64,000 bases of DNA from an uncultured Clostridium sp. (GTDB lineage Bacteria; Bacillota; Clostridia; TANB77; CAG-508). The translations under genes and the position numbers were made by a program. Positions 4,877-50,385 of this stretch are shown here, in pieces; positions within the stretch are counted from its first letter, which is position 1, and the number at the start of each line of letters is the position of its first letter. Location of the stretch: positions 26,701-90,700 of the forward strand of contig CANSOA010000003.1 of NCBI GenBank assembly GCA_947648495.1. Reading direction: 5' to 3'. A model generated the notes under the pieces. It was not told where the DNA came from. It did not search any database and worked only from the letters and a program-made list of their open reading frames with translations.

Positions 4877-4958
4877 AAAATACTCCCTAAAAATTTCAAA
4901 AAATCATCAAAAAATAAAAAAATGACATCAAACACAACCATTTAATGTCACTTTTCTA

Positions 4959-5621
4959 TTATTCTCTCTCCCTCACTTGAGGTTCCAAAACCTCTTTTTT
5001 CTCTTCGGCTTTTTGTGGAACAAGCGCATCCATTGCCTTTTGTATCTTACCAGACAATGCATTTTCTGGTTGAAGATTTTGAAAATGTTCCAGATTTCGT
5101 TCAAATCCATACCTTTCATACAAGTCTGGATGCAAAGTTTTTAATGTTCTTGAATCTTCAATAAGTTCATATAATTGTGCTGCATTATCAAATTTCATTT
5201 CTTCTCCTTTATAATGCTGTCTATATAAAACTAAGCCTATATCAGCCATTGTTCTAAGTGCACAATGTGAATCTACATCATTCACCCACGCTTTTTCTTC
5301 TTGCGAAGCCTTATAGGCATCTTCACAAATTCCATAAACAAAACTTCCTTCACCCACTCCACATCTTGCAAAGTCTTTAGAACGTATATCCCACAACTCT
5401 TTCAAAGTTTCTTTATTAATATCAAAACCTTCTTCTGCATATTTTGCACCTAATAAAAATATATTCGTCATTTGAAAAACATTTGGGTCTTTTGCCCACT
5501 CCTCTTTTTCTCTAAATTCCTTTGTCCAATCAAGAATTCCTTTACTTGTTTCATTAAATTGTTCAGGATAAATATTTTCATGTATGTGTCTATATTCCAT
5601 AAATACTATTCCTTTCACCAT
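4959..5621 (-). CDS. Hypothetical protein (220 aa; real start may be the internal MEYRH...)
   Basis: Long ORF with non-repetitive composition and no family motif I can name. It is bracketed by direct copies 1 and 2 of the 89-bp element. Confidence 0.55.
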   Translation of the reverse strand: MVKGIVFMEYRHIHENIYPEQFNETSKGILDWTKEFREKEEWAKDPNVFQMTNIFLLGAKYAEEGFDINKETLKELWDIRSKDFARCGVGEGSFVYGICEDAYKASQEEKAWVNDVDSHCALRTMADIGLVLYRQHYKGEEMKFDNAAQLYELIEDSRTLKTLHPDLYERYGFERNLEHFQNLQPENALSGKIQKAMDALVPQKAEEKKEVLEPQVRERE

Positions 5622-5696
5622 TTTAAAAATAGTATTTACAATTTTTAATATTACTTACAAGTAATTTTTACCAATTAAAAATTTAAATATATTTTT

Positions 5697-5785
5697 GGGG
5701 ACGGGGACACTCTTAATTACTACAAAAAACAAAGAAAAAACGAGTAAACATGAGAAAAAAGGAATTCAAGACTGTCCCCGTCCCC
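5697..5785 (+). repeat. 89-bp GC-rich TIR element, copy 2
   Basis: Same termini and interior as copy 1, with one mismatch (ggagttc vs ggaattc), in direct orientation. Confidence 0.85.
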
Positions 5786-5860
5786 AAAAATATCCCCCAA
5801 ATACCAAAATAAAACAAAAAACCACCAAAACCTAAAACCTAAAGACAAAAACCCAAAAAT
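5786..5860 (+). repeat. Degenerate C-tract array, mirror image of the 4709-4787 G-tract array
   Basis: Sequence ccccaaaaatatcccccaaataccaaaat...accaccaaaacctaaaacctaaagacaaaaaccc. It is approximately the reverse complement in style of the array left of copy 1. Confidence 0.6.
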
Positions 5861-5876
5861 CATTCTAATATTATAT

Positions 5877-6728
5877 TTAAACCAAACCCAATTTCTTCAA
5901 GCTTTCCTTTGTCTGAACATACCCTTGCTCATACAACTCATCCACTCTTCTAAAATCCAGTAATCCCACATTTTGTGTCTCAATCTCCAACAAATAATCT
6001 GTTCCATCCCACTCATAATGTGCCAGCTCATGGCACAAAATTCCAAACGATTTATCCAACACTTGAATAATATTATCACAACATTTCTTCTGCGTTCTAT
6101 CCACAAAAACAATACTCAAAACTTTATCTGCCCCAATCCTTTTCGTCTCACGCCACGGCAAATTTTCCGCCAAACCACCATCTACTAAAAGTGTATTCTT
6201 ATATTCACACGGACAAAAAACACCCGGATAACTACAACTTGCTTGAACCGCCGTCCCAATATCCACATTATTAATATATTTAATATTTCCTTCATTTTTA
6301 ATTTGCGGTCCCGAATGAAAAACATACAACTCTTCCGTATGAATATTCACCGTCGGAATAATTAATTTTCTCTCAATTTGATTAATATTTTGAATTCCCT
6401 TTTTCCCACACAATTTATGCGCAAAATGATAAATCGACTTTCCACTATTTAAACCATTTATCTTTATTTTTCCCGTTTTTACAAAATTTTTTCCAACATT
6501 CCAAACATTCTGTAAATCCCAATAACCAATTTTTTTTGCATATTTTTTAAACGCTACAAAAATCTCATCAGTCGAATAACCACACGCATACAAAGTCGCA
6601 ACAATACTCCCAGAAGACGTTCCCGAAATATAATCAAAATACATTCCTGCCTCTTTCAATGCTTTTATTGCTCCAATATGTGCCGCGCCTTTAATCCCGC
6701 CACCAGACAAACATAAACCTAACTTCAT
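5877..6728 (-). CDS. Patatin-like phospholipase
   Basis: Oxyanion GGGIKG, nucleophile elbow GTSSG, catalytic DGG; 283 aa. Confidence 0.88.
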   Translation of the reverse strand: MKLGLCLSGGGIKGAAHIGAIKALKEAGMYFDYISGTSSGSIVATLYACGYSTDEIFVAFKKYAKKIGYWDLQNVWNVGKNFVKTGKIKINGLNSGKSIYHFAHKLCGKKGIQNINQIERKLIIPTVNIHTEELYVFHSGPQIKNEGNIKYINNVDIGTAVQASCSYPGVFCPCEYKNTLLVDGGLAENLPWRETKRIGADKVLSIVFVDRTQKKCCDNIIQVLDKSFGILCHELAHYEWDGTDYLLEIETQNVGLLDFRRVDELYEQGYVQTKESLKKLGLV

Positions 6729-6782
6729 AAAAAATCACCTAGAATATCATATTCTAAGTCATTCTAATTTGTTATTCTAAAA

Positions 6783-6807
6783 CAAAAAAAATACCACAAA
6801 TGTGGTA
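6783..6807 (-). terminator. Rho-independent terminator downstream of the DUF3800 gene
   Basis: Minus strand reads taccacatttgtggta followed by a T-run (the plus-strand A-run at 6783-6791). Confidence 0.6.
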
Positions 6808-6932
6808 AAATTTTGTTAACTGCCTTAGCATGATGATAACACATATCACTTACCGAGATTATGGCATGTTTCTAAGGACTTACTGTTTAACTTAAAAATA
6901 GAATAACACATAATTTTACATTTGTCAATATT

Positions 6933-7640
6933 TTATGATATATTTTTATCTTTGTTTTCCATTGGAAATCGAAACAATGGTAATATATATCCTTCTCTCC
7001 TAAGTCTTATCAATTCTTGATTGTAGCCCCCAAGTGTCACCATATTTGAATACAAAATATTAGAAAAAACATCTGCAATTTGAATGAGCTTATTTTGTGC
7101 CGAATCAAAATACTGCACCCTGACATTCTCAAGCAAATCCATATTCAAAACCATTTCTTGATTCAAATAATCCTCCAAAGAAAACTTCGAATCCGTTCTC
7201 ACATTTCTTTCATCAATTTGCAAAAACAACTGCCTATCCCAAATATATTTTCGCTTTACAGCATTCAAAAAAAACAACTTCAGCAAATAATTAAAAGTCC
7301 TCGCCTTATTTGAAATAAACTTCTTCTGCAGTTTATCATTATCCAAAACAATATAACCAACCCTCAGCAAATCGTTTTGGCAAAAAAACTCTAAAAACTG
7401 CAACTTCATATTTCGGTCAAAACACGAACCCTTAAGCTCCATAAACTTTCCATTTTTCTGAAACATTCTATTTTGTTTATCCAAAACCCTCAATCGCTCA
7501 AAATTTCTCCTCACAAAAACTTTATAAACCCTTTTCAATCTCTCCTCATTCTTAGGCATCACAACCCCAATCACAAAAAAGCGATTTAACCTCTTTGACA
7601 CAGGATGCACACTACCCGACTCATCCATATACATATTCAT
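6933..7640 (-). CDS. DUF3800-family protein
   Basis: N-terminal MYMDESGS... followed by FFVIGVVM, the pattern I associate with DUF3800; 235 aa. Confidence 0.65.
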   Translation of the reverse strand: MNMYMDESGSVHPVSKRLNRFFVIGVVMPKNEERLKRVYKVFVRRNFERLRVLDKQNRMFQKNGKFMELKGSCFDRNMKLQFLEFFCQNDLLRVGYIVLDNDKLQKKFISNKARTFNYLLKLFFLNAVKRKYIWDRQLFLQIDERNVRTDSKFSLEDYLNQEMVLNMDLLENVRVQYFDSAQNKLIQIADVFSNILYSNMVTLGGYNQELIRLRREGYILPLFRFPMENKDKNIS

Positions 7641-34628: not shown

Positions 34629-35213
34629 CTAATTTGCTTGTTTTAACTCTTTAAAATTAAGTAATTTATCTCTATAATACTCATATTGTTTTTGTCTAGC
34701 TTTCAGCTCTGCTGAAAGCTCTTCTGAAAGTAATGTAAAATCGTCCAAAATACGCACGATTTCGCATTGTACCTCCATTGGAGGTACAGCAATTTGAAGC
34801 TTTCTAAAATCACCCTGATTTAATTTTGGTATATTTCCATGTATAAAACTCGTTACATTAATTGTTTGAATATAATGATATAAATATCTTAAAGAAACTC
34901 CTTCTATTTCTTCAATAATATGTGCATGATTATTTACCCATATTTTTCCTTCAGCCCATGTTACTATCGGATTCCCATTTTCATTTATCACAGAACCATC
35001 TTCTCCAACTAATACATATTTTCCATCAAATATGTAGTCGGCTACATAATCTTGAATTCCATTTGCTCCATAATATGGATATTCTCCTGCTTTTCTTGCA
35101 GACTTTGTAACAGGCTTCCTTTTATTATCTAATATGTTACAGCATTTTTCCAAATCTAAAAGTTTTACGCTATTAGGATATTTGTTTTTTATTAAATCAT
35201 CTATTTTTCCCAT
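34629..35213 (-). CDS. hsdS: Type I specificity subunit, half-size (single target-recognition domain)
   Basis: 194 aa: one TRD plus one conserved C-terminal helix (LSAELKARQKQYEYYRDKLL). Start abuts the hsdM stop. Confidence 0.8.
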   Translation of the reverse strand: MGKIDDLIKNKYPNSVKLLDLEKCCNILDNKRKPVTKSARKAGEYPYYGANGIQDYVADYIFDGKYVLVGEDGSVINENGNPIVTWAEGKIWVNNHAHIIEEIEGVSLRYLYHYIQTINVTSFIHGNIPKLNQGDFRKLQIAVPPMEVQCEIVRILDDFTLLSEELSAELKARQKQYEYYRDKLLNFKELKQAN

Positions 35214-37347: not shown

Positions 37348-37496
37348 TCCTTTCTATGCAGTATAGAAAAAGAGCAAATTAACTCTCAAAATTAATTTAC
37401 TCTTTTCAACTTATCCTTTATTTTTTCTTTAACCCTTGAACGCAGTTTACTGTAAGCATTTCCTCGATTATCGTTTTTTGCTATTCTTCCCAGAAC

Positions 37497-37673
37497 CCAG
37501 TTTTTGTGCTATTCGCAAGAATTCGTTAAAACTAATTCTTAAATGAATATCAATTTTATTGTCATAGACAACAATTTCTTTTATCATCGCTGATAATATC
37601 ATTTTTTCCTTTCGCAACTAGCTTTTTTTAAACTTCTTTCCAATCTAGAATCATACTTTTCATTCTCCCATAA
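37497..37673 (-). pseudogene. 3'-terminal remnant of a second LSR-1-type serine recombinase gene
   Basis: About 90% identical to 27013-27183 (the last ~55 codons of LSR-1) with two 1-nt indels. Homology stops on both sides, and nothing corresponds to the rest of the gene. Confidence 0.75.
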
Positions 37674-37712
37674 TAAAAAAGACAAAATATCACCAATATA
37701 ATATTTTGTCTT
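37674..37712 (-). terminator. Rho-independent terminator of the 1355-aa gene
   Basis: Minus strand reads agacaaaatat-tatattggtg-atattttgtct, then tttttt. Confidence 0.7.
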
Positions 37713-37727
37713 CTATATAATTTTTAT

Positions 37728-40700
37728 CTATTCCATTTCTTTAATTTTACTTTCAATATATGAGATTTCATCCTCTATTAAATTGTATTTTTTATATAAT
37801 TGTAAGTCTATTTCATGAATAGTTTTTGACCAATCTATATCAGAATTGTTTGTAAAATCTTGTATCGGAACAAATTTATACACATTTTGATATATTGCCC
37901 TAGAAGATTTCATAATTCCCACCATTACTCTTAAAAATTTTGTTTCCATATACTTTTTTAAATTTACTGCCTCTGTTTCTGATTCAAAATTTCCAAACGT
38001 AATCAATGCACCAGAGCATATAGATTTAGGTTCACCAATAAAAGCTTTACCAATTATGGCAACTTGTTTCGCATCCATTAACGTTCCAGCCGCACCATTC
38101 ATTTTTGATGAAAAAACTTTCCACCTATCTACTAATTCAAAATTTCTACTTACAATATCAATTGAAGTATACTTTATCGTGTCATTTGCACATCTAATGC
38201 AAATACTATTCTTTTTATCTTTTTTATCTACAACTACCTTATTTAGTGTTTCATTAGTTTCAGGAACTTTAAATGGATTTCTACCTGTTGTTATTTTTGT
38301 TAATGATTCAAAATCGTCCCTTTTATATACTTTATTTAAAATATTTACTAAAACATTTAAATGAATTATTTCATCCATATCATCTTCAAAAAGAGGTCTA
38401 TTAGCATATGTTTTTTTCCCATTTACTATCTCTATAAAATCAACATTGCCTTTATATTCTTTATCATATAAAAAATAATTAACACTTCCTATATTTTCTT
38501 CCGTAAATACCTCCTTATTATCTCCATAATTTACTATAGTTTTTATATGATTATTTTCTTTAATAAATTTTCTTAATGGTGGGAATGACGCATCTTGTCC
38601 CTCACCTGTAAACCATCTAGAAGGAGTTATAAATGTCATATAATCTGGTTCTAATTTAATTCCAATAGTCATAAAAAGAGGATATAATTGCTTTGCTAAA
38701 GATGCATTAGACTTACTTCCTATATTTTCTTGATATGGTGGGTTTCCAACAACAACATCAAAATTCATTTTTTCATCTCCTTCTTTATAAAAAATATTTT
38801 CCTTTAACTCAATTTCAGAAAACTTTTTCTGTTGTAATAGAAGTCTTTTTACTTTGCTATAATCAATACTTGCATTTTTATCAGTTATCTTAAGTAATTG
38901 ATATGCATTAAAGAATGCTGCTATATTATCAACATTTAATCCTAAAATCTCGTATATCTTTCTTGTGAATTCATACGCTATACTTGAAGTTGGTATTGAA
39001 TATATTATATCGTTAATTATATGGTTATCTATATTTAATTCCGTCAATATTTGATAAATTACTAAAGAAAATTCTCCCATTTTACTAGCAATATCTAGAA
39101 TTTTACCTTTTTTATTACAAATATCAATTATATTTTCCTTTGGTATTAATTCCATCATTTCTCTGCAAATATTATTTGGTGTAACTATTTCAGATTGTGA
39201 CAATTTTTTGAACTTATTCATTGCTATAATAGCTCTTTCAATTGGTTGCATACTATCATCTTTAGATAGCATGTTAATATTTTGTATTTTATAATCTAAT
39301 TGACTTAATTTAAAAGCATCCATTTTGTCATACATCAATTTTAATATAACATTACTCAATCCAAGATTTTTAGCAATCCTTTTATTGTCTTCATTACTAT
39401 CAATTGAATTAATAACTTGCGATAAAGAAATTATCTCATTTTCTGTCAGGAATGAATAAAATAATACTCTTGCAAAATAAGTTCTAATTTTCTTCTCATA
39501 GTTTATTGGTTCTTCTTCGTTATTCTCCTCATTTTCTCTACTATTATCTATTGTACTATTCTGTGCGTTATTATCTCTTGAGTCAGATGTAGAAATATCT
39601 AAATCTTCTCCATCTTCATCATTTGTATTATCAATTGATAATCCTTTATTTGAGCCAAGTTCAGCTTGTCTATCTATTACATTTTTTATTTCTTCATTAT
39701 CTAATAGTTTTAAATCTACAGGAATATCATTTACCTCATCAATCACGCCTTTTTCTTTTGAATACTCACTTACAGCATCCATTATACTTTTAGGTTTAAT
39801 TTCTATAATTTTGTTTTTATTTATTGTGATTATCGGTGAAATTCTTAATTCATTTTTCAATCTTTCCTCTAACAATGAATTTCCTGCTTCTTCAACATTT
39901 ACATTATATATCTTTGATTTTTGTTCTTGTAATGTAAACATTCTATATGGATTAAAATCAACTAATAATGTTTGTGGCTTCATATTATACTTTATAACAT
40001 TTTTTTCATTATTTACATATTCTTTTATATACTGATTTTGTAATCTAAAAATTGCTTGATCATATTCTTGTGGAGATGCTGTATCTTTTAAATAAATCAT
40101 TGTATCCCATTCTTCTACTGTTGAGCCTGTTAACATTCTATTTACTGTTAAAGTTAATGTTTTTATGTTGTTTTTTTCAGATTCTTTTATTTGGTGTTTT
40201 ATTTCTACAATAGATTTATATTTATTAGAATTTTCAACTCCAGAAATATTTATAATTTCATATTCATTCAAATTTTTAAATTTATCTTTGTTATTGTTTA
40301 GTAATTCCTCTAAAGCATCACATGAAGCACAATAAGGTAAAACACATACAATGTGCCTACACATTTTTCCTTGTTTTATTTTTTCATAGTTTAAAAAACC
40401 TAATACATTTTCATCTTCTTTACTTCCATCAATAACTTCAAATAATTCTAATATTTCTTGTTTGTTTTCAAATTTTTTGTGTAATCCATCTTTGGCTTTT
40501 TTTACTGATTTTGGTTTTAGTAAAGCAGAAAAAGCATATGTATATCCATTCTTTTGATATTCTTTTAACTTTTCTTTTGCCTTTTTGCTTGGATTAAAAG
40601 CAAATCTAATCATTTGTGGGAAACCAAAATAAGGATTATCCCATTCTTTAACTTCATCATTTAATATATTTTCATTATTCCATTTTTCCTGTTCTTCAAC

Positions 40701-41795
40701 TATATCTGAAAATTGACAAAAAGAAATAATGTCTTCTTTTTCAAATTCGCTTCCCATCAATATTCTATATGGTGTACCAGATAAATGTAGTGTCATATCA
40801 ACATCTAAAATCTTTAAGTTATCATCCAATTCATTGATATTATTTTCCTCTTTCTGATATTTATCCTTTATATCTTTTTCATATTTAGTATTCTCTAACA
40901 CTTTTCCATACTTTTCTGCTCTTGCACCAAAATGAGTTTCATCAACAATTAATAAATCAATTTTATTTTTAAAAATATCTTCATGTTTTTCTTTAATTAA
41001 ATCTCCTTGCAAATCTTGTAGTGTCAAAAATACAGCTACTTTTTCACCTTTAGATAATCTTTCCGTGATTTCATTATTATTCCTTGATAATTCATCAGAA
41101 GAAATAAAACTATATCCTTCAAAATTTTTAGGAACTTCCACTGTCTTCTTCCATTCAAATTTTACATCAGCTTTAGCAGAAACAATTACTACTAAATTGG
41201 CATTTATTTCTTTTGCACACATCATTGAAGTAAATGATTTTCCAAATCTCATAACAGCATACATTAATAATTTTTTTCTTCCATTCGCCCTTGCATTTAT
41301 AAAATTGCTAATTGCATCCTCTTGATTTGATCTAGGCTTCCATTCTTTATCTTCTCTTCTGAATTGAAATACTTCTGGACGGTTTGTTTTTGCATCATAA
41401 TATTGATATTTATTATCATTTTTTTCATAACTTTCTTTGATATTCTTAATTGCCTCTTTTACATCATTATCAGTTGCATTTTTAAAAAATTCATTTGAAT
41501 AATATATTTCTTTTGGTAAATCATTTTCTTTTAGTCTTTCTTTGCTCAATTCTTCTTCAACATATTTGTGTACTGCATAATCTCTAAAAAACACATCCGA
41601 GTTAACCATAGCTTTTTCTTTATATTCTTCTTTCAAATCAGGAAAAAATCTTTTCCATTCATTCAATCTAATAGAAACAGGTCTATATGTATCACCTATT
41701 TTCAAATAGTTTGGTACAGTATTAGTAGTAAACGCGTAAATATATGGTTCAACTCTGCCAATTATAATATTATCTATTATTTCTTTTCCTTCCAT
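37728..41795 (-). CDS. Single-polypeptide T5orf172 (GIY-YIG-like) + SF2 helicase + gamma-class N6-adenine methyltransferase/TRD fusion (Type ISP-like R-M enzyme candidate)
   Basis: N-terminus: PYIYAFTTNTVPNYLKIGDTYRPVSIRLNEW...SNEFF (T5orf172/MUG113-like). Helicase motif I RFGKSFT, motif II LLIVDETHFG, motif III LSGTPYR, motif VI-like QAIFRLQN. Acidic low-complexity linker. MTase motif I ILDIASKMGEFS and motif IV VVGNPPYQ, followed by a C-terminal region of about 300 aa. Confidence 0.8.
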   Translation of the reverse strand: MEGKEIIDNIIIGRVEPYIYAFTTNTVPNYLKIGDTYRPVSIRLNEWKRFFPDLKEEYKEKAMVNSDVFFRDYAVHKYVEEELSKERLKENDLPKEIYYSNEFFKNATDNDVKEAIKNIKESYEKNDNKYQYYDAKTNRPEVFQFRREDKEWKPRSNQEDAISNFINARANGRKKLLMYAVMRFGKSFTSMMCAKEINANLVVIVSAKADVKFEWKKTVEVPKNFEGYSFISSDELSRNNNEITERLSKGEKVAVFLTLQDLQGDLIKEKHEDIFKNKIDLLIVDETHFGARAEKYGKVLENTKYEKDIKDKYQKEENNINELDDNLKILDVDMTLHLSGTPYRILMGSEFEKEDIISFCQFSDIVEEQEKWNNENILNDEVKEWDNPYFGFPQMIRFAFNPSKKAKEKLKEYQKNGYTYAFSALLKPKSVKKAKDGLHKKFENKQEILELFEVIDGSKEDENVLGFLNYEKIKQGKMCRHIVCVLPYCASCDALEELLNNNKDKFKNLNEYEIINISGVENSNKYKSIVEIKHQIKESEKNNIKTLTLTVNRMLTGSTVEEWDTMIYLKDTASPQEYDQAIFRLQNQYIKEYVNNEKNVIKYNMKPQTLLVDFNPYRMFTLQEQKSKIYNVNVEEAGNSLLEERLKNELRISPIITINKNKIIEIKPKSIMDAVSEYSKEKGVIDEVNDIPVDLKLLDNEEIKNVIDRQAELGSNKGLSIDNTNDEDGEDLDISTSDSRDNNAQNSTIDNSRENEENNEEEPINYEKKIRTYFARVLFYSFLTENEIISLSQVINSIDSNEDNKRIAKNLGLSNVILKLMYDKMDAFKLSQLDYKIQNINMLSKDDSMQPIERAIIAMNKFKKLSQSEIVTPNNICREMMELIPKENIIDICNKKGKILDIASKMGEFSLVIYQILTELNIDNHIINDIIYSIPTSSIAYEFTRKIYEILGLNVDNIAAFFNAYQLLKITDKNASIDYSKVKRLLLQQKKFSEIELKENIFYKEGDEKMNFDVVVGNPPYQENIGSKSNASLAKQLYPLFMTIGIKLEPDYMTFITPSRWFTGEGQDASFPPLRKFIKENNHIKTIVNYGDNKEVFTEENIGSVNYFLYDKEYKGNVDFIEIVNGKKTYANRPLFEDDMDEIIHLNVLVNILNKVYKRDDFESLTKITTGRNPFKVPETNETLNKVVVDKKDKKNSICIRCANDTIKYTSIDIVSRNFELVDRWKVFSSKMNGAAGTLMDAKQVAIIGKAFIGEPKSICSGALITFGNFESETEAVNLKKYMETKFLRVMVGIMKSSRAIYQNVYKFVPIQDFTNNSDIDWSKTIHEIDLQLYKKYNLIEDEISYIESKIKEME

Positions 41796-41803
41796 ATTTC
41801 CTC

Positions 41804-42772
41804 CTATTTTTTATTTAATAGAGTTTCAAATTTTATTTTCCTATTTGTATCCCAATTCATTATTTTGCAGTATATTCCATTATGTTTTTTATTATTTCCA
41901 CTTTTACATCCTTCACATATGTATTCCTCTGTTATCTCACCAAATAATGTTATTTCCAGTATCTTTTCATTTCTGCAACTATTCGGTATTACATATTTGA
42001 TTCCATCCATTTGCCATATATTCCAACTTATAATATTCGCAATATTTTTTATTAATTGAATATCTGGTTTTTTATTAAACTTTTTAAAATAGTAATCTAT
42101 GTAAGTATATAATAAGTTTTCTCTAGCTAATAGAACATTATCCCCTTGCCAATCAAAGCCATAAACACTTTTTACAGCAATAGTTGACCATTCAGTCCAC
42201 ACATCTTCATCATTATTATTTTCAGATACAATCCTTAATTTTCTGTCTAATAGTCCAATTCTATCTTCTACCTTAATTGCTTTTCCTGTAACAGTATCAT
42301 ATCTACTTACAAGATATGGTGCTTCACCACAAGAAATTTCTAATCTTGTACTTTTAACATAATCTTGCCATGTATTTTTATTAAATTCTATTTTATTATA
42401 GTTTGTTATCCATTTCTTATCTGATGATACATTAAAAATATTCTTTCTTCCAAACCATGCTTCATCTGTCAAATTATTTTGTTCATTGCAAATCCATGAA
42501 GGAGTAAAAACTTCTGCATTATTTCTTGCTCTCGTTTCTTTCTCTTCTTTAGATTTTCTTGAACGAGGTTTAATTAAATCCTTATATCTACCCGTTATCT
42601 TATTTATTGTTATTTCTGATTCAAATTCAAATCCTATTCCATTTTGCTGATAATCAGCTGTAGCCCATATTATATTTTTACTACTACTATTATCTTTTAA
42701 TAAAATATTTAATAATTCTATATCAATTGATAACAGTTTTTCTTCTTTAACATCAATTAACTCATTAAACAT
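41804..42772 (-). CDS. Methyltransferase-fold-like accessory protein, probably catalytically inactive (322 aa)
   Basis: AEVFTPSWICNEQNN (motif X-like), LEISCGEAPYL (degenerate version of EPSCGxGxFL), and VYGFDWQGDNVLLARENL (resembles the HsdM FYGQE...N block). No NPPY/DPPY motif. Cys-rich C-terminus. 9 nt upstream of the fusion gene. Confidence 0.45.
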   Translation of the reverse strand: MFNELIDVKEEKLLSIDIELLNILLKDNSSSKNIIWATADYQQNGIGFEFESEITINKITGRYKDLIKPRSRKSKEEKETRARNNAEVFTPSWICNEQNNLTDEAWFGRKNIFNVSSDKKWITNYNKIEFNKNTWQDYVKSTRLEISCGEAPYLVSRYDTVTGKAIKVEDRIGLLDRKLRIVSENNNDEDVWTEWSTIAVKSVYGFDWQGDNVLLARENLLYTYIDYYFKKFNKKPDIQLIKNIANIISWNIWQMDGIKYVIPNSCRNEKILEITLFGEITEEYICEGCKSGNNKKHNGIYCKIMNWDTNRKIKFETLLNKK

Positions 42773-42794
42773 TTTATCATCTCCTATTTTGTTT

Positions 42795-42977
42795 TTATTT
42801 CATCTCTACAATATCATCTAATGTATCATCTAAAACTCTACAAATCCTAACTAATGTTTCCATCTTTACCCTTTTAGCCATTTCATTTGTAGTTATTTCA
42901 GCTTTTTGACTTAAGTAAGTTTTACTGATTTTCTTATCTATTATTAATTTCCATAGCTTATCATAATTTACCTGCAT
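42795..42977 (-). CDS. Small XRE/Cro-type HTH protein (candidate controller of the downstream two genes)
   Basis: 60 aa; ISKTYLSQKAEITTNEMAKRVKMETLVRICRVLD fits HTH_XRE. Confidence 0.65.
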   Translation of the reverse strand: MQVNYDKLWKLIIDKKISKTYLSQKAEITTNEMAKRVKMETLVRICRVLDDTLDDIVEMK

Positions 42978-43040
42978 AAATTATTCCTTTATAAAACAAT
43001 TTTTTATTACAAAATTATTCTATCATTTTCTCTTCTTTTA

Positions 43041-43067
43041 TTCAAGATTTTCTTGAAATTTTCAAGG
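43041..43067. promoter_or_regulatory. Palindrome TTCAAGAttttCTTGAA plus a third TTCAAG half-site upstream of the HTH gene
   Basis: Directly visible at 43041-43057 and 43062-43067, about 65-90 nt upstream of the HTH start. Confidence 0.4.
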
Positions 43068-43102: not shown

Positions 43103-43357
43103 TTATAATTCCATCTTTCTTATCTTTTCTTTCTGTTTCTTCAATTTCCCTTTTTCTTCTACTTCTCGTATCTGATTCCTCATTTTAGAAGGATTATTTA
43201 TAACTTCATCACACATCTTAATTTTCTTTTTTACTTTTTTAAGTTTGTCTGTAACTTGTATTATCTGTTTTGCAATTTGGTTCTTCTCGCTTTCATTCTC
43301 AGTATTTTTTCTTTTATAATACAATTTATTTCTAGTATTCAATATAAAAAAGAGCAA
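43103..43357 (-). CDS. Hypothetical Lys/Glu-rich coiled-coil fragment (84 aa, non-ATG start)
   Basis: ORF only. May be the tail of a degraded mobile-element gene. Confidence 0.3.
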   Translation of the reverse strand: MLFFILNTRNKLYYKRKNTENESEKNQIAKQIIQVTDKLKKVKKKIKMCDEVINNPSKMRNQIREVEEKGKLKKQKEKIRKMEL

Positions 43358-43617
43358 ATTAATTCACTCTTCTTAGCTTGTCCTCTATTTTTTCTTTAAC
43401 CCTCGAACGCACTTTACTGTAGGCATTTCCTCGATTATCATTTCTTCCTCAAAACCTATGTTGCATCCTCCACATACGTCCAAATCCCCGAACTTGCCGC
43501 CAAATTCCTCATAGCCAATCTCTCCGAAGAAGACAAATTTTGTCCCACATCAAAAGCTGTACCAGCATAATGTTGTGATTGTGCATACCCAGTTGAACAT
43601 TTTTTGCTCTAATCCAT

Positions 43618-45203
43618 TTAGAGCATTTTCTCTATATCTATCTTTAATACAAATTTAACCGATTTATCATGATAAATATAAATTTTATCGATTAGCATAT
43701 TTAATATTGCTTTATCAGGAACTCTACTATCTATTACTTGATTAAAATAGTCTATACTTTTTTTTAATTTCTCCTCTTTAACCTTCAAATCTTCTTGTCC
43801 TAAATTCTCAATTTGTTTTTTTGTATTTTCGATTTCTTTGTATTTTTCATCTTCCATACTTTTATAGGTGCTTTCTATAAAAGATTTTTTATCTGGATTA
43901 CAAGAACTTAGTTCCTTTATTTTTTCAGATAATATTACTTTATATTCTGTTTCTAAAATTCTTAAACTATCTTTCAATTTATTTAGATCATTTTGTTTAT
44001 TTGACTTGTATTCTTCCAATCTCAAATTTGCTATTTCTTGTTTGTAATTATCCTTTAAGGCTATTAAAAAATTTTTTAAACTTGCAAGTAGGACATCTTC
44101 TCTTACATTATGGCATACACACCTTGCTTTTCCATATTTTCTATAACTAAGGCATTCATATAATTTTTTAGGCACATATCCTTCTCTTTGACTTCGAACT
44201 CTTGCAACCCCTGTAACCGAACCACCGACACTCTGCACATTTTAAAAAGCCACCAAATATGTAGTCCCTTTGTTTTTTGGTATACATACTTGAATTTCCA
44301 ATTCTTTTTTTCATCAATTCTTGTACTCTCTCAAATTGTTCTTTTGAAATAATTGCTTCGTGATGATTTTCAAATTTATATTGATTTTCCTTTTTTACTT
44401 TTCTTCCCTCTTTATGAATATCATATCTTTCTGTCTTATGAGTAATCAATGTTCCAATATAAATTTCATCTTTTAAAATTCTTTTTATCATATACATATC
44501 CCATAATTTTTTTACGGGTTTCTTATAGGCTTTGCCTTTTTGTTTTAAATCTCTTTCAATGACTTGTGATGGAGTTAAAAAATGATATTCAGAATTTAAT
44601 TTTTTACAAATTTTTAACATTCCTAATCCTTGTTCATATAAATCAAATATGGTTTTTATTGTCTCTCGAACTGTCTCATCTACAATCAATTCTCCTTTTT
44701 TAGCAGTTTTCCTATAGCCAAACTTAGGTCCTTGAAGTAATATTCCTTTCTCTAATTGTTTGTGCATACCAATTTTTACTTTTTTGGATACTTCCTTTAC
44801 ATACCTTTCATTAAACCAGGTAGAAAGTCCTAATAAATCATCATCTCCTTCTAATAAATTGAAATCTCCAAAAGTATCTTTCGTTAGTATTAAATTCACA
44901 TTTCGCTCTTTCAGTTCGTCGATAAATGTAAGTGTTCTGCTACCTTTACGCCCTATTCTTGATAAGTCTTTTGCTAAAATAATATCTACTTTTCCTGCTC
45001 TAATGTCTTGTAACATTCTACTAAACGCTGGTCTTTCATCATTTGAAATATAGCCGTGATACATTATCATCTATGTAATATTCTGATATTTCAAAACCTT
45101 GCGAATCCGCATATTCTTTAGCCAGTTCCTGTTGTGCTTCAATACTGCTATATCTACTTTTATTATCATCCTTACTTAATCTACAGTAACATACAACTTT
45201 CAA
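43618..45203 (-). CDS. Large serine recombinase (LSR-2), TTG start, frame broken twice by CGG +1 sites
   Basis: LKVVCYCRLSKDD...YYIDDNVS|GYISNDERPAFSRMLQDIRAGKVDIILAKDLSRIGR joins at plus CCG 45054-45056. FLKCAEC|GGSVTGVARV...YECLSYRKYGKARCVCHNV joins at plus CCG 44225-44227. Resolvase catalytic block, recombinase domain, Zn-ribbon and coiled coil are all present once the shifts are made. Confidence 0.85.
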
Positions 45204-45631: not shown

Positions 45632-45907
45632 AACTTTTTGCTAACACTTTTGGGGCATGACGGTCTAAATGAGATTTTCTCTCATTTCTGGATTTATCAT
45701 TGATTTTAAGAAGTCTTCCGTCTGTTTTATAGCTTTATTCATTTCAATTCTTCTTTCTTTTTAATTATATAATATTTTGCAACTTTTTGCTAACAGTTTT
45801 TGAACATGACAGTCTATATGAGACTTCGCCTCATTTCTCGTTTTTTAATTATTTTTAAGAAAAATTTTGATTGTTTGATTTGTTTCTTCATTTTAATTCT
45901 TCTTTCT
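45632..45907 (-). repeat. Two tandem 149-bp units, each carrying a conserved 25-codon mini-ORF plus hairpin
   Basis: The units start at 45632 and 45781 (aactttttgctaaca...). The minus-strand mini-ORFs are 45665..45742 (MNKAIKQTEDFLKSMINPEMRENLI) and 45814..45891 (MKKQIKQSKFFLKIIKKREMRRSLI). Confidence 0.7.
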
Positions 45908-47117: not shown

Positions 47118-47981
47118 TTACAAATTACTTGGTATTTTATTTTTCATCTTCTTATAAATTAAACACACAATCATAAACGAAATTATTTGTGCTATTAAAA
47201 TCCTTACTATTTGCAATTCATCTGCTCCTGTATTAGTTACTATATGAAGCACATTTGTAGCAATAATATTATTAAATAAATGATCACCTATACCAATAAA
47301 TAAACTACCAGTCATTTTGTATAACATACCCCATTTAATGCTCATAATTCCTGCAAGTACAATATATCCTAATATCATTACAATAAAAGAAATAAGATTC
47401 ATATCTCCATTTATAACTGACCTTAATGGCATTACAAAATGCCATAATCCAAATAATAAAGCAACTATCATATTTGATTTTAAAAAATTATTTTTATTAT
47501 TGATAACTTTTAAGAAAAAACCTCTAAATATTCCTTCTTCCATAATAACATTAACAATATTTAGTAGAATACACAAAATAAAAAATATAATTTCAGTATG
47601 TTTGACTTCATTTCCAACTAAAGAAAATCCATTAACATAAAGTTCAAAACTAGGGTTTCTTGAATTTGCATAAAGTGTTATATATTCTATAAAATAAGAT
47701 ATTCCAAAACAAATCCCCCCTAATATCAATCCATAAATTAAATATTTAAAAAATTTATTTTTTTCAAAACCAATATCTTTAAACTTATAATTCATTACTT
47801 TTAGAAAAAATAATAATATGATAATGCCTATCAATTTGTGAATAAAGTTTTCAGAAATAAAAGTTGTATCAGTCTTTATTATAAAGTATTCTACAATTCT
47901 TATTACTAAACATATCATAAATATTATAAAACTATATAGAATAGGTTTATTTAGTATATTTTCTTTTAATATTTCTTTCAT
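47118..47981 (-). CDS. CPBP-family intramembrane metalloprotease
   Basis: Multi-TM protein with EEGIFRGFF (EExxxR) and LFGLWHF (FxxxH) motifs. Confidence 0.8.
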   Translation of the reverse strand: MKEILKENILNKPILYSFIIFMICLVIRIVEYFIIKTDTTFISENFIHKLIGIIILLFFLKVMNYKFKDIGFEKNKFFKYLIYGLILGGICFGISYFIEYITLYANSRNPSFELYVNGFSLVGNEVKHTEIIFFILCILLNIVNVIMEEGIFRGFFLKVINNKNNFLKSNMIVALLFGLWHFVMPLRSVINGDMNLISFIVMILGYIVLAGIMSIKWGMLYKMTGSLFIGIGDHLFNNIIATNVLHIVTNTGADELQIVRILIAQIISFMIVCLIYKKMKNKIPSNL

Positions 47982-48007
47982 TTCTTACCTCACTTTTAAA
48001 TTGTAAT

Positions 48008-48727
48008 TTATCTAATTAACCTTTTTATATATTCATCTGTATTTTCCCTAAAATAACCACAATGACCTAGCGACTCAATCTGGATAAATTCGCTATTTTT
48101 ATATTTTTTAATTCTAGGTAAGCAAAGTCTTGCTATATCATTTGTGCCATAAACAAAAGTTATTTTTCTCTGTGAATCATTTTCTAATTTAGGTGCTTCA
48201 ATATTATAACAACTTTCTAATAAGTTTTTTAGACTTTCTATTGTTACTATTGGTGCAACATATTGCTGTACTTCGCCCATACCATTAAAGCACTTATTTA
48301 ATTCTTTAACTGTATCTTCTGGATGTTCTTTTATATTGAGCAAACATTTTTTATATCTATTATAAAAATATTTTTTAATAATGTTTGGAAATTTAAAGAT
48401 AGGAGCACTATCTACTATTACTTGATCGACTTTATCTTGATTATTGCAAAAATAATGAAATGCAATATTACCACCTAAAGAAAATCCTATAATTGCTTTT
48501 AATTTATCAATGTTATTTTCTTTTAGAAATTCATCAATAGTTTTTTCTTCATCTTTCATTGATATATAGTATGAATCTTGGTAATGCCCACTATATGTTG
48601 GAATAATCAAATAATATTTATTACTTAATCTATCTATTACAAAATCAAAAAATTTGGCACTTGTAAACACAGGGTGTAATAATAATATCTTTTCATTTTC
48701 TTTCTTCCCATAAGTAACTATTTTCAA
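48008..48727 (-). CDS. Alpha/beta-fold hydrolase
   Basis: 239 aa; nucleophile elbow GFSLGG; C-terminal LGHCGYF. Confidence 0.72.
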   Translation of the reverse strand: MKIVTYGKKENEKILLLHPVFTSAKFFDFVIDRLSNKYYLIIPTYSGHYQDSYYISMKDEEKTIDEFLKENNIDKLKAIIGFSLGGNIAFHYFCNNQDKVDQVIVDSAPIFKFPNIIKKYFYNRYKKCLLNIKEHPEDTVKELNKCFNGMGEVQQYVAPIVTIESLKNLLESCYNIEAPKLENDSQRKITFVYGTNDIARLCLPRIKKYKNSEFIQIESLGHCGYFRENTDEYIKRLIR

Positions 48728-48756
48728 TTAAAATCAACTCCTATCTAAATTGTAAT

Positions 48757-49494
48757 TTATATAATTTTTAATTTATTATCTTTTTGTATTTGCTTTCTAT
48801 AATTTACAAATATTATTACTAATAATATAATTGTTATACCTGCATAAATTGTACTTTCTATTGTCATTTTAGGAAATTGGCTATACTTTAAAATATAAGT
48901 AACAAATGCATTGGGCAAATTAACAAAATACGACACAACAAAATTATTATTAGATAATTTAAAAGCAATTGCAAAAGCTATACCTACTACAAAAAGAAGC
49001 ATAATATCACTAAATGTTCTAAAACCTGGATAACCTAAATGGTAAAGTGAAAATAACAAACCTGAAATTATAATAGCAATACCATATCCAAATTCTTTCT
49101 CTATTCTTGTTTGAATGAAACCACGAAACAAAAATTCCTCAAAAAAAGTAGTCATAATAAGTGGTAAAATAGCAATAGGCAATACATTCCAAGACATTTG
49201 TTCCCCTGTTATAGTTTTAGGTATAATTTGTCCACCGATAGAAAATAATACGAAAGAAAATAATACAATAAACTCTCGTTTACCTAACTTTTTTATTCCA
49301 ACTTCTTCAAAATTTTTCTTCTCTTTTAGTAAAATTAAAAGTGGTAATAATACACTTATAACTATACCATAAATTAAATTATAAAATATATAATATATAG
49401 AATTATTAAAAAGACAGGCTATACTAATAAATATCACAATTGCTAATTCTATTAAGCAACAAAATAATATAAATTTCCAATTTTTCACAATCAT
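48757..49494 (-). CDS. CPBP-family intramembrane metalloprotease
   Basis: FEEFLFRGFI and LFSLYHL motifs; multi-TM. Confidence 0.8.
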   Translation of the reverse strand: MIVKNWKFILFCCLIELAIVIFISIACLFNNSIYYIFYNLIYGIVISVLLPLLILLKEKKNFEEVGIKKLGKREFIVLFSFVLFSIGGQIIPKTITGEQMSWNVLPIAILPLIMTTFFEEFLFRGFIQTRIEKEFGYGIAIIISGLLFSLYHLGYPGFRTFSDIMLLFVVGIAFAIAFKLSNNNFVVSYFVNLPNAFVTYILKYSQFPKMTIESTIYAGITIILLVIIFVNYRKQIQKDNKLKII

Positions 49495-49575
49495 ATTTCT
49501 CCCACAAATTACTTATACTGATATTATCATAAAAGCAGACAATCATCAACTAATCATCTACTCTATACATGTAAT

Positions 49576-50385
49576 TTATCTTTCTTTTTTCATAATGTAT
49601 AAACTATATATTCCAAGTAATATATAAGTAGGTAAAATAATATATAGACTTATATTAGGATAACTTGTAATACTTGTAAAGCAATATGGTAAAGCACACA
49701 CATTTATTATAAAATGCAAAATAATTGGTAACCATAGATTATTTGTTTTCTTGTATATTGCTCCAAAATACATTCCCATAGCAATAGTCCATACTATTTT
49801 TGTAATTATAATAATTATTGATTGTCCCAAAACTCCGAATATATGTCCTAATCCAAAAATAACAGAAGATAGAATAATTGCTATAATAGTATTATTTTTC
49901 TTTTTATAACATAGTTTTTCAATAAGATTTAATAAGAAACCTCTCACATATAATTCTTCAACTAATGCAACACCTATATAATAAATAATACCCTCAATTA
50001 AAACTTTCCATATTGTTGGACTATAATTGAAAGGTGTTAATCCCATATAAAAGGCAATACCTGATATAATGCCTACAACAGCTCCAATTATACCATATTT
50101 CTTAAATCCATTTTTCAATTCATTTTTATTAAGTCCTAATTTCCAACTAGGGCAAAGATATTTTAATGTTAAAAAGGTAATTACCCCAATAATTATGAAA
50201 TTAAACATAAGTGTCCAATAGAATGGAGTAATATCTAGCACTTCAATATTTATAAATAATGCACTAGGTAATCCACTTATATCCATAAATGCTAATAATA
50301 TTGTGAGAATGCCAATTATAATTAACTCTTTCTTTTTCATACTATACCTACTTTCAAAATTGTAATTTTTTGTTATCCTAGCCAA
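49576..50385 (-). CDS. CPBP-family intramembrane metalloprotease (start may be the internal MKKKELII at about 50340)
   Basis: VEELYVRGFLL and IFGLGHI motifs; multi-TM. Confidence 0.8.
   Translation of the reverse strand: MARITKNYNFESRYSMKKKELIIIGILTILLAFMDISGLPSALFINIEVLDITPFYWTLMFNFIIIGVITFLTLKYLCPSWKLGLNKNELKNGFKKYGIIGAVVGIISGIAFYMGLTPFNYSPTIWKVLIEGIIYYIGVALVEELYVRGFLLNLIEKLCYKKKNNTIIAIILSSVIFGLGHIFGVLGQSIIIIITKIVWTIAMGMYFGAIYKKTNNLWLPIILHFIINVCALPYCFTSITSYPNISLYIILPTYILLGIYSLYIMKKER

What the first reader, a model, noticed from the sequence alone, without database searches (positions are those of the whole stretch)
37728..42977. Three-gene module: HTH + inactive-looking MTase-fold protein + 1355-aa T5orf172/helicase/methyltransferase fusion
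The large protein has the layout of Type ISP restriction-modification enzymes (nuclease, SF2 motor, gamma N6A-MTase, TRD in one chain). Its N-terminal nuclease slot is filled by a T5orf172/GIY-YIG-like domain rather than the usual Mrr/PD-(D/E)xK.

Nine nt upstream is a 322-aa protein that keeps MTase motifs X and I in degenerate form (AEVFTP, LEISCGEAPYL). It lacks motif IV and ends in a Cys-rich tail. Upstream again is a 60-aa XRE HTH with a TTCAAGAttttCTTGAA palindrome in its promoter region.

The module sits in a defence/mobile island next to a Type I system and a GmrSD-like enzyme. I do not recognise this exact combination as a named system.
Basis: partly seen in the sequence, partly recalled or inferred. 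Interest (0 to 1): 0.72.

Follow-up and report, generated by a model that had tools for sequence, protein, structure and literature searches.

The report
Restriction enzyme with a half-methylase partner
This is a member of a very common but unstudied family of ATP-driven restriction-modification systems, and its small partner protein is one conserved half of a DNA methylase, not a dead enzyme, which suggests the methylase is assembled from separate pieces.

Summary
The three ORFs exist as described and form one minus-strand operon. It has an operator/promoter upstream and a strong terminator downstream.

The 1355-aa protein has four parts:
- a T5orf172 (GIY-YIG-type) nuclease;
- a DExH motor;
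- a gamma N6-adenine methylase;
- a hypervariable target-recognition region.

PADLOC, whose RM models I believe derive from REBASE, already labels both proteins: Type IIG R-M plus Type II MTase. The module is therefore not unnamed, but I found no paper that characterises it.

The 322-aa protein is the AdoMet-binding N-half (motifs X, I, II, III) of a methylase. It stops just before motif IV. In 59 of 60 related loci with enough downstream sequence, a helicase/methylase gene follows it.

Wherever the nuclease-motor gene is intact, the family keeps two N-halves (Na, Nb) and one catalytic/TRD half (C). C is found in three states:
- fused to Nb, as here;
- fused to Na;
- free-standing.

Methylase-only derivatives, including phage PTm1, keep Na plus a free C while Nb decays.

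My best reading is a Type ISP-like enzyme whose small partner complements C in trans. The HTH is an optional controller-type regulator. Nothing here has been tested biochemically.

The parts
43041..43066 (-). Operator-like element with three half-sites: CTTGAA-aat-TTCAAG-aaaat-CTTGAA
   Evidence: Read directly from the sequence. It is the only match in the window, against 0.02 expected by chance. The closest relative, L006, keeps the same three half-sites with the same spacing although the flanks differ.
43017..43045 (-). Promoter-like site: -35 TTGAAT, 17-nt spacer, TG-extended -10 TAGAAT. It overlaps the last operator half-site.
   Evidence: Consensus scan. This is only a consensus match in AT-rich DNA, and the scan found no excess of such sites over shuffled sequence.
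42795..42977 (-). 60-aa XRE/Cro-type HTH protein, a likely controller (C-protein-like) autoregulator. It is an optional accessory of the family.
   Evidence: Pfam HTH_26, E 1.1e-9. Homologous or analogous small HTH genes lie upstream of the half-methylase gene in about 10 of 75 related loci, and also in L094, L096 and phage PTm1.
41804..42772 (-). Na: a 322-aa stand-alone N-terminal (AdoMet-binding) half of a gamma-class N6-adenine DNA methylase. It has motifs X, I, II and III plus an optional Zn-ribbon-like tail, and ends just before motif IV.
   Evidence: - PADLOC MTase_II PDLC03390, 394 bits, full length.
- AlphaFold2 model: pLDDT 90.2, pTM 0.90.
- No significant PDB fold match for the protein on its own.
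- The natural Na-C fusion P0123 models as a complete methylase like CamA, M.BseCI and M.TaqI, E down to 6.6e-15.
41391..41795 (-). Large protein aa 1-135: T5orf172 (GIY-YIG superfamily) nuclease domain
   Evidence: Pfam PF10544, E 8.6e-7. K32, G34, R43, E102 and F104 are invariant across both subtypes of the family. T5orf172 belongs to the GIY-YIG endonuclease superfamily, with a catalytic Arg and Glu (PMC8263062).
39696..41390 (-). Large protein aa 136-700: SF2 helicase-like ATPase motor
   Evidence: Pfam ResIII, E 1.1e-11. Invariant across the family: GK186 (Walker A), D285-E286-x-H288, S339-G340-T341, and Q580..F583-R584.
39216..39695 (-). Large protein aa 701-860: linker containing an acidic, Asn-rich low-complexity stretch
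   Evidence: Sequence read. Together with the adjacent Nb half it is the least conserved part among distant subtype-B homologues, and it is well below the motor in close ones.
38796..39215 (-). Large protein aa 861-1000: Nb, the enzyme's own N-half of the methylase (motif X SEIVTP, motif I ILDIASKMGEF, motifs II and III)
   Evidence: - The Pfam Eco57I match covers model positions 3-171.
- A family profile matches DrdV (PDB 7lo5) at profile positions 870-1031, E 2e-4.
- The same type of N-half ends the nuclease-motor protein in loci where C is elsewhere.
- It is also the N-half of roughly 525-aa stand-alone methylases.
37728..38795 (-). Large protein aa 1001-1355: C-half. It holds catalytic motif IV (FDVVVGNPPYQ) through VIII, a hypervariable target-recognition region (about aa 1111-1265) and a conserved tail (DIDWSKTIHEIDLQLYKKY...).
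   Evidence: - PADLOC MTase_II PDLC03375 (348 positions) matches aa 1004-1354.
- Identity is mosaic: 21-33% here in proteins whose motor is about 80% identical.
- Homologous C-halves exist as free roughly 344-aa proteins, or fused to Na.
37674..37711 (-). Intrinsic terminator after the large gene: an AU-rich stem of 11 or more pairs followed by a U-run
   Evidence: Sequence. RNA fold -17.4 kcal/mol, z = -6.0 against shuffles.
37389..37664 (-). Remnant of the 3' end of a large serine recombinase gene, marking the downstream edge of the cargo unit that carries the module
   Evidence: Direct repeats of 87-93% identity with 27013-27182 (the 3' end of the intact recombinase gene at 26942-28660) and with 43356-43449 (next to the broken recombinase gene at 43618-45070).

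Best explanation
**What it is.** The locus is a two-gene, ATP-dependent restriction-modification system with a lineage-specific HTH controller. It is carried as cargo of a decayed serine-recombinase element.

**The large protein.**
- It works like a Type ISP enzyme.
- Its C-terminal half recognises a short DNA target and carries the catalytic NPPY site.
- The DExH motor translocates DNA from unmodified sites.
- The N-terminal T5orf172 (GIY-YIG-type) nuclease cuts.

**The small protein, Na.**
- It is the AdoMet-binding half of a split gamma-class adenine methylase.
- I infer that it docks in trans onto the catalytic/TRD half (C) of the large protein to form the protective methylase, or one of two.
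- The large protein's own N-half (Nb) ties the same C-half to the motor and nuclease.
- One recognition/catalytic module would then be shared between a methylating partner and a restricting partner.

**The HTH protein.** I infer that it binds the three-half-site operator over its own -35 box and times expression of the operon.

**Shown:**
- the domain content;
- the operon structure;
- the gene linkage;
- the three alternative placements of C;
- survival of Na plus free C in methylase-only loci.

**Inferred:**
- physical Na-C complementation;
- AdoMet binding by Na;
- translocation-coupled cleavage;
- the defence function.
For: **Domains and intact catalytic motifs.**

**PADLOC matches.** The REase_MTase_IIG model matches the large protein over its full length at 1386 bits. 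The MTase_II model matches the small protein at 394 bits.

**Operon features.**
- 8-nt gap with the ribosome-binding site over the stop codon.
- Terminator, z = -6.
- Operator and promoter.

**Linkage.**
- Of 60 related loci with at least 4.3 kb downstream, 55 have helicase plus MTase-C directly after the Na gene, and 59 have at least one of the two.
- At least 582 related loci were found in a one-genome-per-species collection.

**Na is a real half-methylase.**
- Stand-alone forms end just before motif IV. About a quarter of the 50%-identity representatives continue into KFDxVIGNPPYQ plus a C-half homologous to large-protein aa 1000-1355.
- The fused form P0123 models at pLDDT 90 and matches CamA, M.BseCI, PglX, MmeI, M.TaqI and LlaGI over its whole length, E down to 6.6e-15.
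- Orphan and fused Na are equally conserved at E87, F89, E145, C148, G149, E150, P152, E/D207 and N251.

**Alternative placements of C.**
- Na-C followed by nuclease-motor-Nb: L049, L087, L088, L091.
- Na, then free C, then nuclease-motor-Nb: L100 and L101; L098 has a GmrSD gene inserted.
- C-halves attached to Na are up to 62% identical over their full length to C-halves attached to Nb.

**Methylase-only derivatives keep intact Na and free C while Nb is a broken remnant.**
- Phage PTm1.
- Chromosomal L094 and L095.
- Phage-like L097 keeps the Na + C pair, but I did not look for an Nb remnant there.

**TRD mosaicism.**
Against: - There is no biochemical or methylome evidence for any member that I could find.
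- In the window, C is already covalently joined to a complete-looking Nb. Nb-type N-halves also occur in ordinary stand-alone methylases. A free C-half for Na to complete is therefore not obviously available, and Nb-C may methylate on its own.
- Na models as a compact, confident fold by itself (pTM 0.90), so it may not need a partner strand.
- I could not model the Na-C interface, because only monomer models without coordinates were available.
- Profile comparison links Na to Nb only through motif X, at 33% probability.
- The methylase-only examples come from only three lineages.
- The domain-analogous dnmA-yeeB-yeeC cluster of B. subtilis showed no restriction or phage defence (PMC9973331).
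Confidence: 0.6

Rival explanations
1. Na is a non-catalytic accessory subunit. It could be an AdoMet sensor, an assembly factor or a pseudo-dimer partner, as in methylases where one protomer reads the DNA and the other methylates. It would bind the large protein, perhaps through an Na-Nb contact, without completing the Rossmann fold. All methylation would be done in cis by Nb-C.
For: - Nb-C looks complete: the Pfam Eco57I match covers model positions 3-171 and the family profile matches DrdV.
- Nb-type N-halves serve ordinary stand-alone methylases.
- Na is predicted to be a compact independent fold.
- Na tracks the motor lineage, not the C-half. In L006 Na is 84% identical, the nuclease and motor segments 86-89%, and C 28%.
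Against: - It does not explain why methylase-only loci and phages keep Na plus a free C-half that starts exactly at motif IV while Nb decays.
- It does not explain why C occurs covalently fused to Na as a complete methylase fold.
- It does not explain why the putative AdoMet-pocket residues are as constrained in orphan Na as in fused Na.
Confidence: 0.25
2. The module is a classical Type IIG system of the Eco57I kind, as the PADLOC labels imply. That would be a fused R-M enzyme plus an autonomous companion methylase, the small protein, that modifies the other strand.
For: PADLOC labels the pair REase_MTase_IIG and MTase_II. NCBI calls homologues of the small protein 'restriction endonuclease subunit M'.
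Against: - The small protein has no motif IV-VIII and no TRD.
- Its model has no significant match to any solved methylase.
- The large protein carries a DExH motor with intact motifs, which classical Type IIG enzymes lack.
Confidence: 0.03
3. The small gene is an evolutionary remnant of a truncated Na-C methylase gene and has no present function. Alternatively, the whole module is a non-restricting relic whose methylase acts epigenetically, as proposed for B. subtilis DnmA.
For: Full-length Na-C genes exist. The dnmA-yeeB-yeeC cluster gave no restriction or defence phenotype (PMC9973331). The module sits in a decayed mobile element.
Against: - Orphan Na occurs in hundreds of species across phyla. 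It has about 20 invariant residues and the same constraint as fused forms.
- The spacing to the large gene is tight, with translational-coupling geometry.
- All nuclease, motor and methylase motifs of the large protein are intact.
- Homologues of a dnmA-yeeB-type cluster did affect phage sensitivity in Vibrio crassostreae, according to PMC9973331.
Confidence: 0.1

Closest known systems
Type ISP restriction-modification enzymes (LlaGI, LlaBIII)
   Same: One chain with the order nuclease, SF2 translocase, gamma N6-adenine methylase, C-terminal TRD (definition in PMC3874165). They are often carried on mobile elements. The family's methylase fold resembles the LlaGI methylase-TRD (5ffj among the matches to the Na-C model).
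   Different: - The nuclease is T5orf172/GIY-YIG type, not Mrr PD-(D/E/Q)xK.
- There is no sequence or profile match to LlaGI or LlaBIII chains in the PDB.
- A conserved second gene encoding a half-methylase accompanies it.
- The catalytic/TRD half can be detached from the motor protein.
Type IIG / IIL fused R-M enzymes (Eco57I, MmeI, DrdV, BpuSI)
   Same: Eco57I-family gamma methylase fused to a nuclease. PADLOC files the large protein under REase_MTase_IIG. DrdV is the only solved protein the family profile reaches. Eco57I-type systems also have a second 'M' gene (my own knowledge).
   Different: These enzymes have no ATPase motor and a PD-(D/E)xK nuclease. Their companion methylases are complete enzymes. 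Here the companion is only the N-half.
dnmA(yeeA)-yeeB-yeeC cluster of Bacillus subtilis and its relatives
   Same: The same three activities are linked in defence islands: an MmeI-like adenine methylase, an SF2 helicase and a T5orf172 protein (PMC9973331).
   Different: It has three separate genes in a different order, and the T5orf172 domain is C-terminal in YeeC. No half-methylase partner is described. I did not test homology to the window proteins. The B. subtilis version showed no restriction.
Naturally split DNA methylases (for example M.AquI and M.EcoHK31I, two-polypeptide C5 methylases; my own knowledge)
   Same: One methylase fold made from two separately encoded polypeptides. This is what the pairs of Na plus free C in PTm1, L094, L097 and L100 imply.
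   Different: Those are cytosine-5 enzymes with one copy of each piece. Here there are two alternative N-halves for one catalytic/TRD half, and a nuclease-motor is attached to one of them.
Solved gamma-class adenine methylases CamA, M.BseCI and M.TaqI
   Same: The fused Na-C homologue P0123 matches them over its whole length: Foldseek E 6.6e-15 to 1.9e-8, probability 1.00.
   Different: About 12-13% sequence identity. Na has large insertions, including an N-terminal extension of about 85 aa and a Zn-ribbon-like hairpin before motif IV. In the window the two halves lie on different polypeptides.
Controller (C) proteins of Type II R-M systems
   Same: A small XRE-type HTH gene is first in the operon, with an inverted-repeat operator overlapping its own promoter.
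   Different: It is only 60 aa. It is present in a minority of related loci, and at least two unrelated HTH sequence types are used. Binding has not been tested.

Membership tests
Type ISP R-M enzymes | Single polypeptide with, in order, nuclease, SF2 DNA translocase, gamma-MTase and C-terminal TRD | tested here: met
   Pfam T5orf172 aa 18-119, ResIII aa 153-305, Eco57I aa 950-1097. Hypervariable region at aa 1111-1265. Definition taken from PMC3874165.
Type ISP R-M enzymes | N-terminal Mrr-like PD-(D/E/Q)xK nuclease | tested here: not met
   The N-terminus is T5orf172 (GIY-YIG superfamily). Its Arg43 and Glu102 are invariant.
Type ISP R-M enzymes | Self-contained: no second subunit needed | tested here: inconclusive
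   A half-methylase gene precedes the large gene in 59 of 60 informative loci. Whether it is required has not been tested.
Type ISP R-M enzymes | Detectable homology to LlaGI or LlaBIII | tested here: not met
   phmmer and a family profile against all PDB chains gave only DrdV (E 2e-4) and sub-threshold UvrB. LlaGI and LlaBIII were not matched.
Type ISP R-M enzymes | ATP-driven translocation, with cleavage on collision of two enzymes from head-to-head sites | not testable with these tools
   Needs biochemistry.
Type IIG R-M (REBASE/PADLOC sense) | Nuclease and gamma-MTase in one chain, and a match to the family model | tested here: met
   PADLOC PDLC03626: 1386.6 bits, protein aa 2-1354 against model positions 7-1359 of 1359.
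Type IIG R-M (classical Eco57I/MmeI sense) | No NTP-dependent motor, and cleavage at a fixed distance from the site | tested here: not met
   A DExH motor with invariant Walker A, DExH, SGT and Q..FR motifs is present. Cleavage position cannot be tested here.
Gamma-class N6-adenine DNA methylase (applied to the 322-aa protein) | AdoMet-binding motifs X, I, II and III | tested here: met
   AEVFTP; LEISCGEAPYL; an acidic residue at position 207; N251. All are invariant or nearly so in 94 orphan and 34 fused family members. Assigning these residues to SAM contacts is an inference by analogy with M.TaqI.
Gamma-class N6-adenine DNA methylase (applied to the 322-aa protein) | Catalytic motif IV (N/D)PP(Y/F/W), motifs V-VIII and a TRD | tested here: not met
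   There is no NPPY, and the protein ends where fused homologues begin KFDxVIGNPPYQ. The model has no significant match to a solved methylase, whereas the fused homologue does.
dnmA-yeeB-yeeC type cluster | MmeI-like methylase, SF2 helicase and T5orf172 protein encoded together | tested here: inconclusive
   The same three domain types are present, but fused and in a different order. I did not test sequence homology to YeeA, YeeB or YeeC. The description comes from PMC9973331.
R-M controller (C) protein | Small HTH gene at the head of the operon, with an inverted-repeat operator at its own promoter | tested here: met
   HTH_26. Operator at 43041-43066, overlapping the -35 box and conserved in L006.
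R-M controller (C) protein | Binds the operator and regulates the R-M genes | not testable with these tools
   Needs EMSA or reporter assays.

The most novel reading that the evidence does not exclude
The catalytic/target-recognition half of the methylase is a shared module. It can complete its Rossmann fold with either of two competing AdoMet-binding halves. Paired with the free half (Na) it methylates. Paired with the half tethered to the motor and nuclease (Nb) it licenses translocation and cutting. Choosing between 'modify' and 'restrict' by alternative complementation of a split fold would be a previously undescribed way of coupling the two activities. It would also explain why phages such as PTm1 carry only Na plus C.
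Probability: 0.2. Interest if true: 0.85.

Novelty: new variant of a known kind. Interest (0 to 1): 0.6.

Why it matters
The family is large:
- at least 582 loci in a one-genome-per-species collection;
- 1,785 clusters at 50% identity;
- present on plasmids and phages as well as chromosomes, and common in gut and rumen bacteria.

Databases label it simply as 'Type IIG plus methylase'.

If the methylase really is assembled from a free AdoMet-binding half and a swappable catalytic/recognition cassette, four things follow:
1. Annotation pipelines miscount these systems' methylases.
2. Specificity could be changed by exchanging a single cassette.
3. There would be a concrete, testable mechanism for how an R-M enzyme decides between methylating and cutting.
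4. The phage-borne Na + C pairs would be a self-protection (anti-restriction) device built from the host system's own parts.

Tried and rejected
- **Direct sequence search of the PDB.** The small protein gave nothing and the large protein gave nothing. The family profile reached only DrdV.
- **Fold search with the small-protein model alone.** No significant match; only weak alignments of about 200 columns to PglX, DrdV, BrxX and LlaGI. The fused homologue was needed to place it.
- **Profile-profile comparison of Na with the large protein.** Only motif X aligned, at 33% probability. The claim that Na and Nb are paralogous halves therefore rests on motifs, position and the fusions, not on profile similarity.
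- **Idea that Nb is a degenerate, AdoMet-blind pseudo-half** because of its K-x-G motif I and the lack of a motif II acid in the window protein. I rejected this as unsupported: the same type of N-half (FLDPVSKSGVF, YGIAITD) is found in ordinary 525-aa stand-alone methylases with a homologous C-half.
- **Idea that the HTH is a core third gene.** Rejected, because it is present in only about 10 of 75 loci.
- **N-terminal extensions on some Na homologues.** No Pfam domain found.
- **NCBIfam.** No model for either main protein.
- **Literature searches.** Searches on T5orf172, helicase, methylase, Type ISP, Type IIG and split methylases found no description of this family.
- **A simple tree of Na.** Fused and orphan forms are interleaved, but metagenomic fragments make the nearest-neighbour calls noisy, so I do not claim a number of independent transitions.

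Full report

Yes. Three minus-strand ORFs lie at 37728-41795 (1355 aa), 41804-42772 (322 aa) and 42795-42977 (60 aa).

Pfam confirms the domains of the large protein: T5orf172 (aa 18-119), ResIII (aa 153-305) and Eco57I methylase (aa 950-1097). It also confirms HTH_26 for the small regulator. The 322-aa protein has no Pfam or NCBIfam match.

The genes form one operon:
- Only 8 nt separate the small and large genes, and AGGAGG overlaps the stop codon.
- A hairpin plus U-run follows the large gene (-17.4 kcal/mol, z = -6.0).

Upstream of the HTH gene lies CTTGAA-aat-TTCAAG-aaaat-CTTGAA (43041-43066):
- It overlaps a -35 TTGAAT / TG-extended -10 TAGAAT promoter-like site.
- The closest relative, L006, keeps the three half-sites. 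Other relatives have different inverted repeats ahead of their own HTH genes.

**2. Is it already named?**

Partly. PADLOC's restriction-modification models match both proteins end to end:
- REase_MTase_IIG (PDLC03626), 1386 bits, for the large protein;
- MTase_II (PDLC03390), 394 bits, for the small protein;
- a third model, MTase_II (PDLC03375, 348 positions), matches only aa 1004-1354 of the large protein, that is, from motif IV onward.

NCBI calls homologues 'restriction endonuclease subunit M' and 'Eco57I restriction-modification methylase domain-containing protein'. I found no paper describing the family.

**3. Linkage.**

The small protein's family is very large:
- 1,785 clusters at 50% identity;
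- at least 582 loci in a one-genome-per-species collection, across Bacillota, Bacteroidota, Spirochaetota and others.

In the 80 closest loci the roughly 320-350-aa gene is followed, within -58 to +31 nt in nearly all cases (one at +92), by a gene of roughly 1300-1380 aa. Of 60 loci with at least 4.3 kb downstream, 55 show both helicase and methylase-C similarity and 59 show at least one.

Two subtypes of the large protein exist, about 20-25% identical in the motor. Both keep these motifs:
- the T5orf172 signature (K32, G34, R43, E102, F104);
- Walker A;
- DExH;
- SGT;
- Q..FR;
- motif X (TP);
- GNPPY.

Plasmid examples include Pediococcus pRS5.

**4. What the small protein is.**

About a quarter of its 50%-identity representatives are 640-710 aa long. 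The same module continues directly into KFDxVIGNPPYQ and a C-terminal half. That half is homologous to large-protein aa 1000-1355, down to the tail DIDWSKxIxEIDxQLYKKY. The stand-alone forms stop just before motif IV.

Structure predictions:
- The window protein models confidently (pLDDT 90.2, pTM 0.90). It shows only three Rossmann strands (beta-1, beta-2 and beta-3) plus hairpins. It has no significant match in the PDB.
- The fused homologue P0123 models equally well (pLDDT 90.0, pTM 0.89). It matches complete gamma-class adenine methylases over its whole length: CamA at E 6.6e-15, then M.BseCI, BrxX/PglX, MmeI, DrdV, M.TaqI and LlaGI.

The 322-aa protein, which I call Na, is therefore the N-terminal AdoMet-binding half of such an enzyme.

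It is not degenerate. Positions in motifs X, I, II and III are as conserved in 94 orphan forms as in 34 fused forms. These positions are E87, F89, E145, C148, G149, E150, P152, E/D207 and N251. Its motif I resembles M.TaqI's EPACAHGPF; that comparison is from my own knowledge.

**5. One catalytic half, two N-halves.**

The large protein has its own N-half, Nb (aa 861-1000: SEIVTP, ILDIASKMGEF), followed by the catalytic/TRD half C.

In loci where C is fused to Na, the next gene encodes T5orf172-helicase and ends in an orphan Nb that stops where motif IV would begin. Examples:
- L049;
- L087, a B. longum plasmid where IS256 has split the methylase gene;
- L088;
- L091.

In L100 and L101, which are plasmid-like, all three pieces are separate genes:
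- Na, 316 aa;
- C, 341 aa, starting MKFDFVIGNPPYQ with its own ribosome-binding site;
- nuclease-motor-Nb, 1107 aa.

L098 has the same arrangement with a GmrSD gene inserted. L096 has the window arrangement plus an extra free C-half that is 71% identical to the fused one.

C-halves attached to Na are up to 62% identical over their full length to C-halves attached to Nb. Among close relatives of the window protein, the motor stays about 80% identical while aa 1111-1265 drop to 21-33%. A relative with only 19% motor identity has a C-half that is 41-59% identical. C therefore behaves as a mobile specificity cassette.

**6. Methylase-only derivatives.**

- Jumbo phage PTm1 carries an HTH gene, an intact Na (335 aa) and an intact free C (gp277, 344 aa). 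It has no nuclease-motor. Between the genes lie broken Nb fragments.
- Chromosomal loci L094 and L095 have HTH, Na, an Nb remnant with an in-frame stop, and an intact C.
- Phage-like L097 has Na and C adjacent.
- L076 lost the helicase by deletion but keeps Na and Nb-C.

That Na and C persist together while Nb decays is the strongest indication that Na and C work together in trans.

**7. Mechanism.**

I commit to the following reading.

The system is a Type ISP-like translocating R-M enzyme. Its recognition/catalytic half is shared between two partners. One is a free AdoMet-binding half, Na, which would give methylation. The other is the motor-tethered half, Nb, which would give coupling to restriction. 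The HTH protein acts as an optional controller.

What is shown: domain content, operon structure, linkage, the three placements of C, and the methylase-only survivors.

What is inferred: the physical complementation, AdoMet binding, translocation-coupled cleavage and the defence function.

The main caveats are these:
- In the window, C is already fused to a complete-looking Nb.
- Nb-type halves serve ordinary stand-alone methylases.
- Na may therefore instead be a regulatory or structural subunit.

**8. Comparison with known systems.**

- **Type ISP.** It works most like this class, as defined in PMC3874165. It fails membership on the nuclease type, on homology and probably on self-sufficiency.
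- **Type IIG.** It is filed as Type IIG by PADLOC, but it has a motor, and its 'companion methylase' is half an enzyme.
- **dnmA-yeeB-yeeC.** This cluster shares the three activities as separate genes. In B. subtilis it showed no restriction (PMC9973331).

**9. Context.**

The module lies between remnants of large serine recombinase genes: 37389-37664, and the broken gene at 43618-45070. It sits in an island with these other genes:
- Type I R-M;
- GmrSD;
- an intact serine recombinase, 26942-28660;
- a ParB_N plus PAPS-reductase/DUF3440 pair.

**10. Verdict.**

I rate this a new variant of a known kind. It has one notable unexplained feature, the conserved orphan half-methylase and the movable catalytic cassette, and that feature can be tested directly.

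Noticed in passing
window 26942-28660, 37389-37664, 43103-45070: There are three copies of the 3' end of a large serine recombinase gene: one intact gene, one short remnant and one gene broken into at least two ORFs. Repeats are 87-93% identical. The island looks built by successive insertions of related recombinase-plus-defence-cargo elements.
   Followed up: partly
window 24339-24872 and 25252-26541: A ParB_N protein (177 aa) sits next to a PAPS-reductase + DUF3440 protein (429 aa). From memory this resembles an IbrA/IbrB-like pair. It lies just beyond the intact serine recombinase.
   Followed up: no
window 45632-45907: A 149-nt tandem repeat of 1.9 copies, 77% matching, lies in the non-coding stretch upstream of the broken recombinase gene.
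   Followed up: no
window 34629-35213: The Type I specificity subunit is only 194 aa, with a single Methylase_S domain. This half-size HsdS would have to dimerise and would give a palindromic bipartite site.
   Followed up: no
window 47118-50385: Three paralogous Rce1-like CAAX protease genes (287, 245 and 269 aa) are interleaved with an alpha/beta-hydrolase gene.
   Followed up: no
L092 (Tenacibaculum phage PTm1, NC_049340.1) 4230-6996: A jumbo phage carries only the methylase pieces of this family: a free catalytic half (gp277), an HTH gene (gp278) and the N-half (gp279), plus decayed Nb fragments. It has no nuclease-motor. This may be phage self-protection built from host defence parts.
   Followed up: partly
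L096 6001-7032: A locus with the window's architecture carries an extra free-standing catalytic/TRD half. It is 71% identical to the one fused in the large protein. It may be a spare specificity cassette or a second methylase specificity.
   Followed up: partly
L098 / L099 3080-10327: A GmrSD gene is inserted between the N-half gene and the free catalytic-half gene of a three-piece version of the system. The nuclease-motor there is split into two ORFs. In the window, too, a GmrSD gene lies in the same island.
   Followed up: no
P0155, P0159, P0177, P0187, P0218, P0220: Some homologues of the N-half carry an N-terminal extension of 140-240 aa with no Pfam match.
   Followed up: partly
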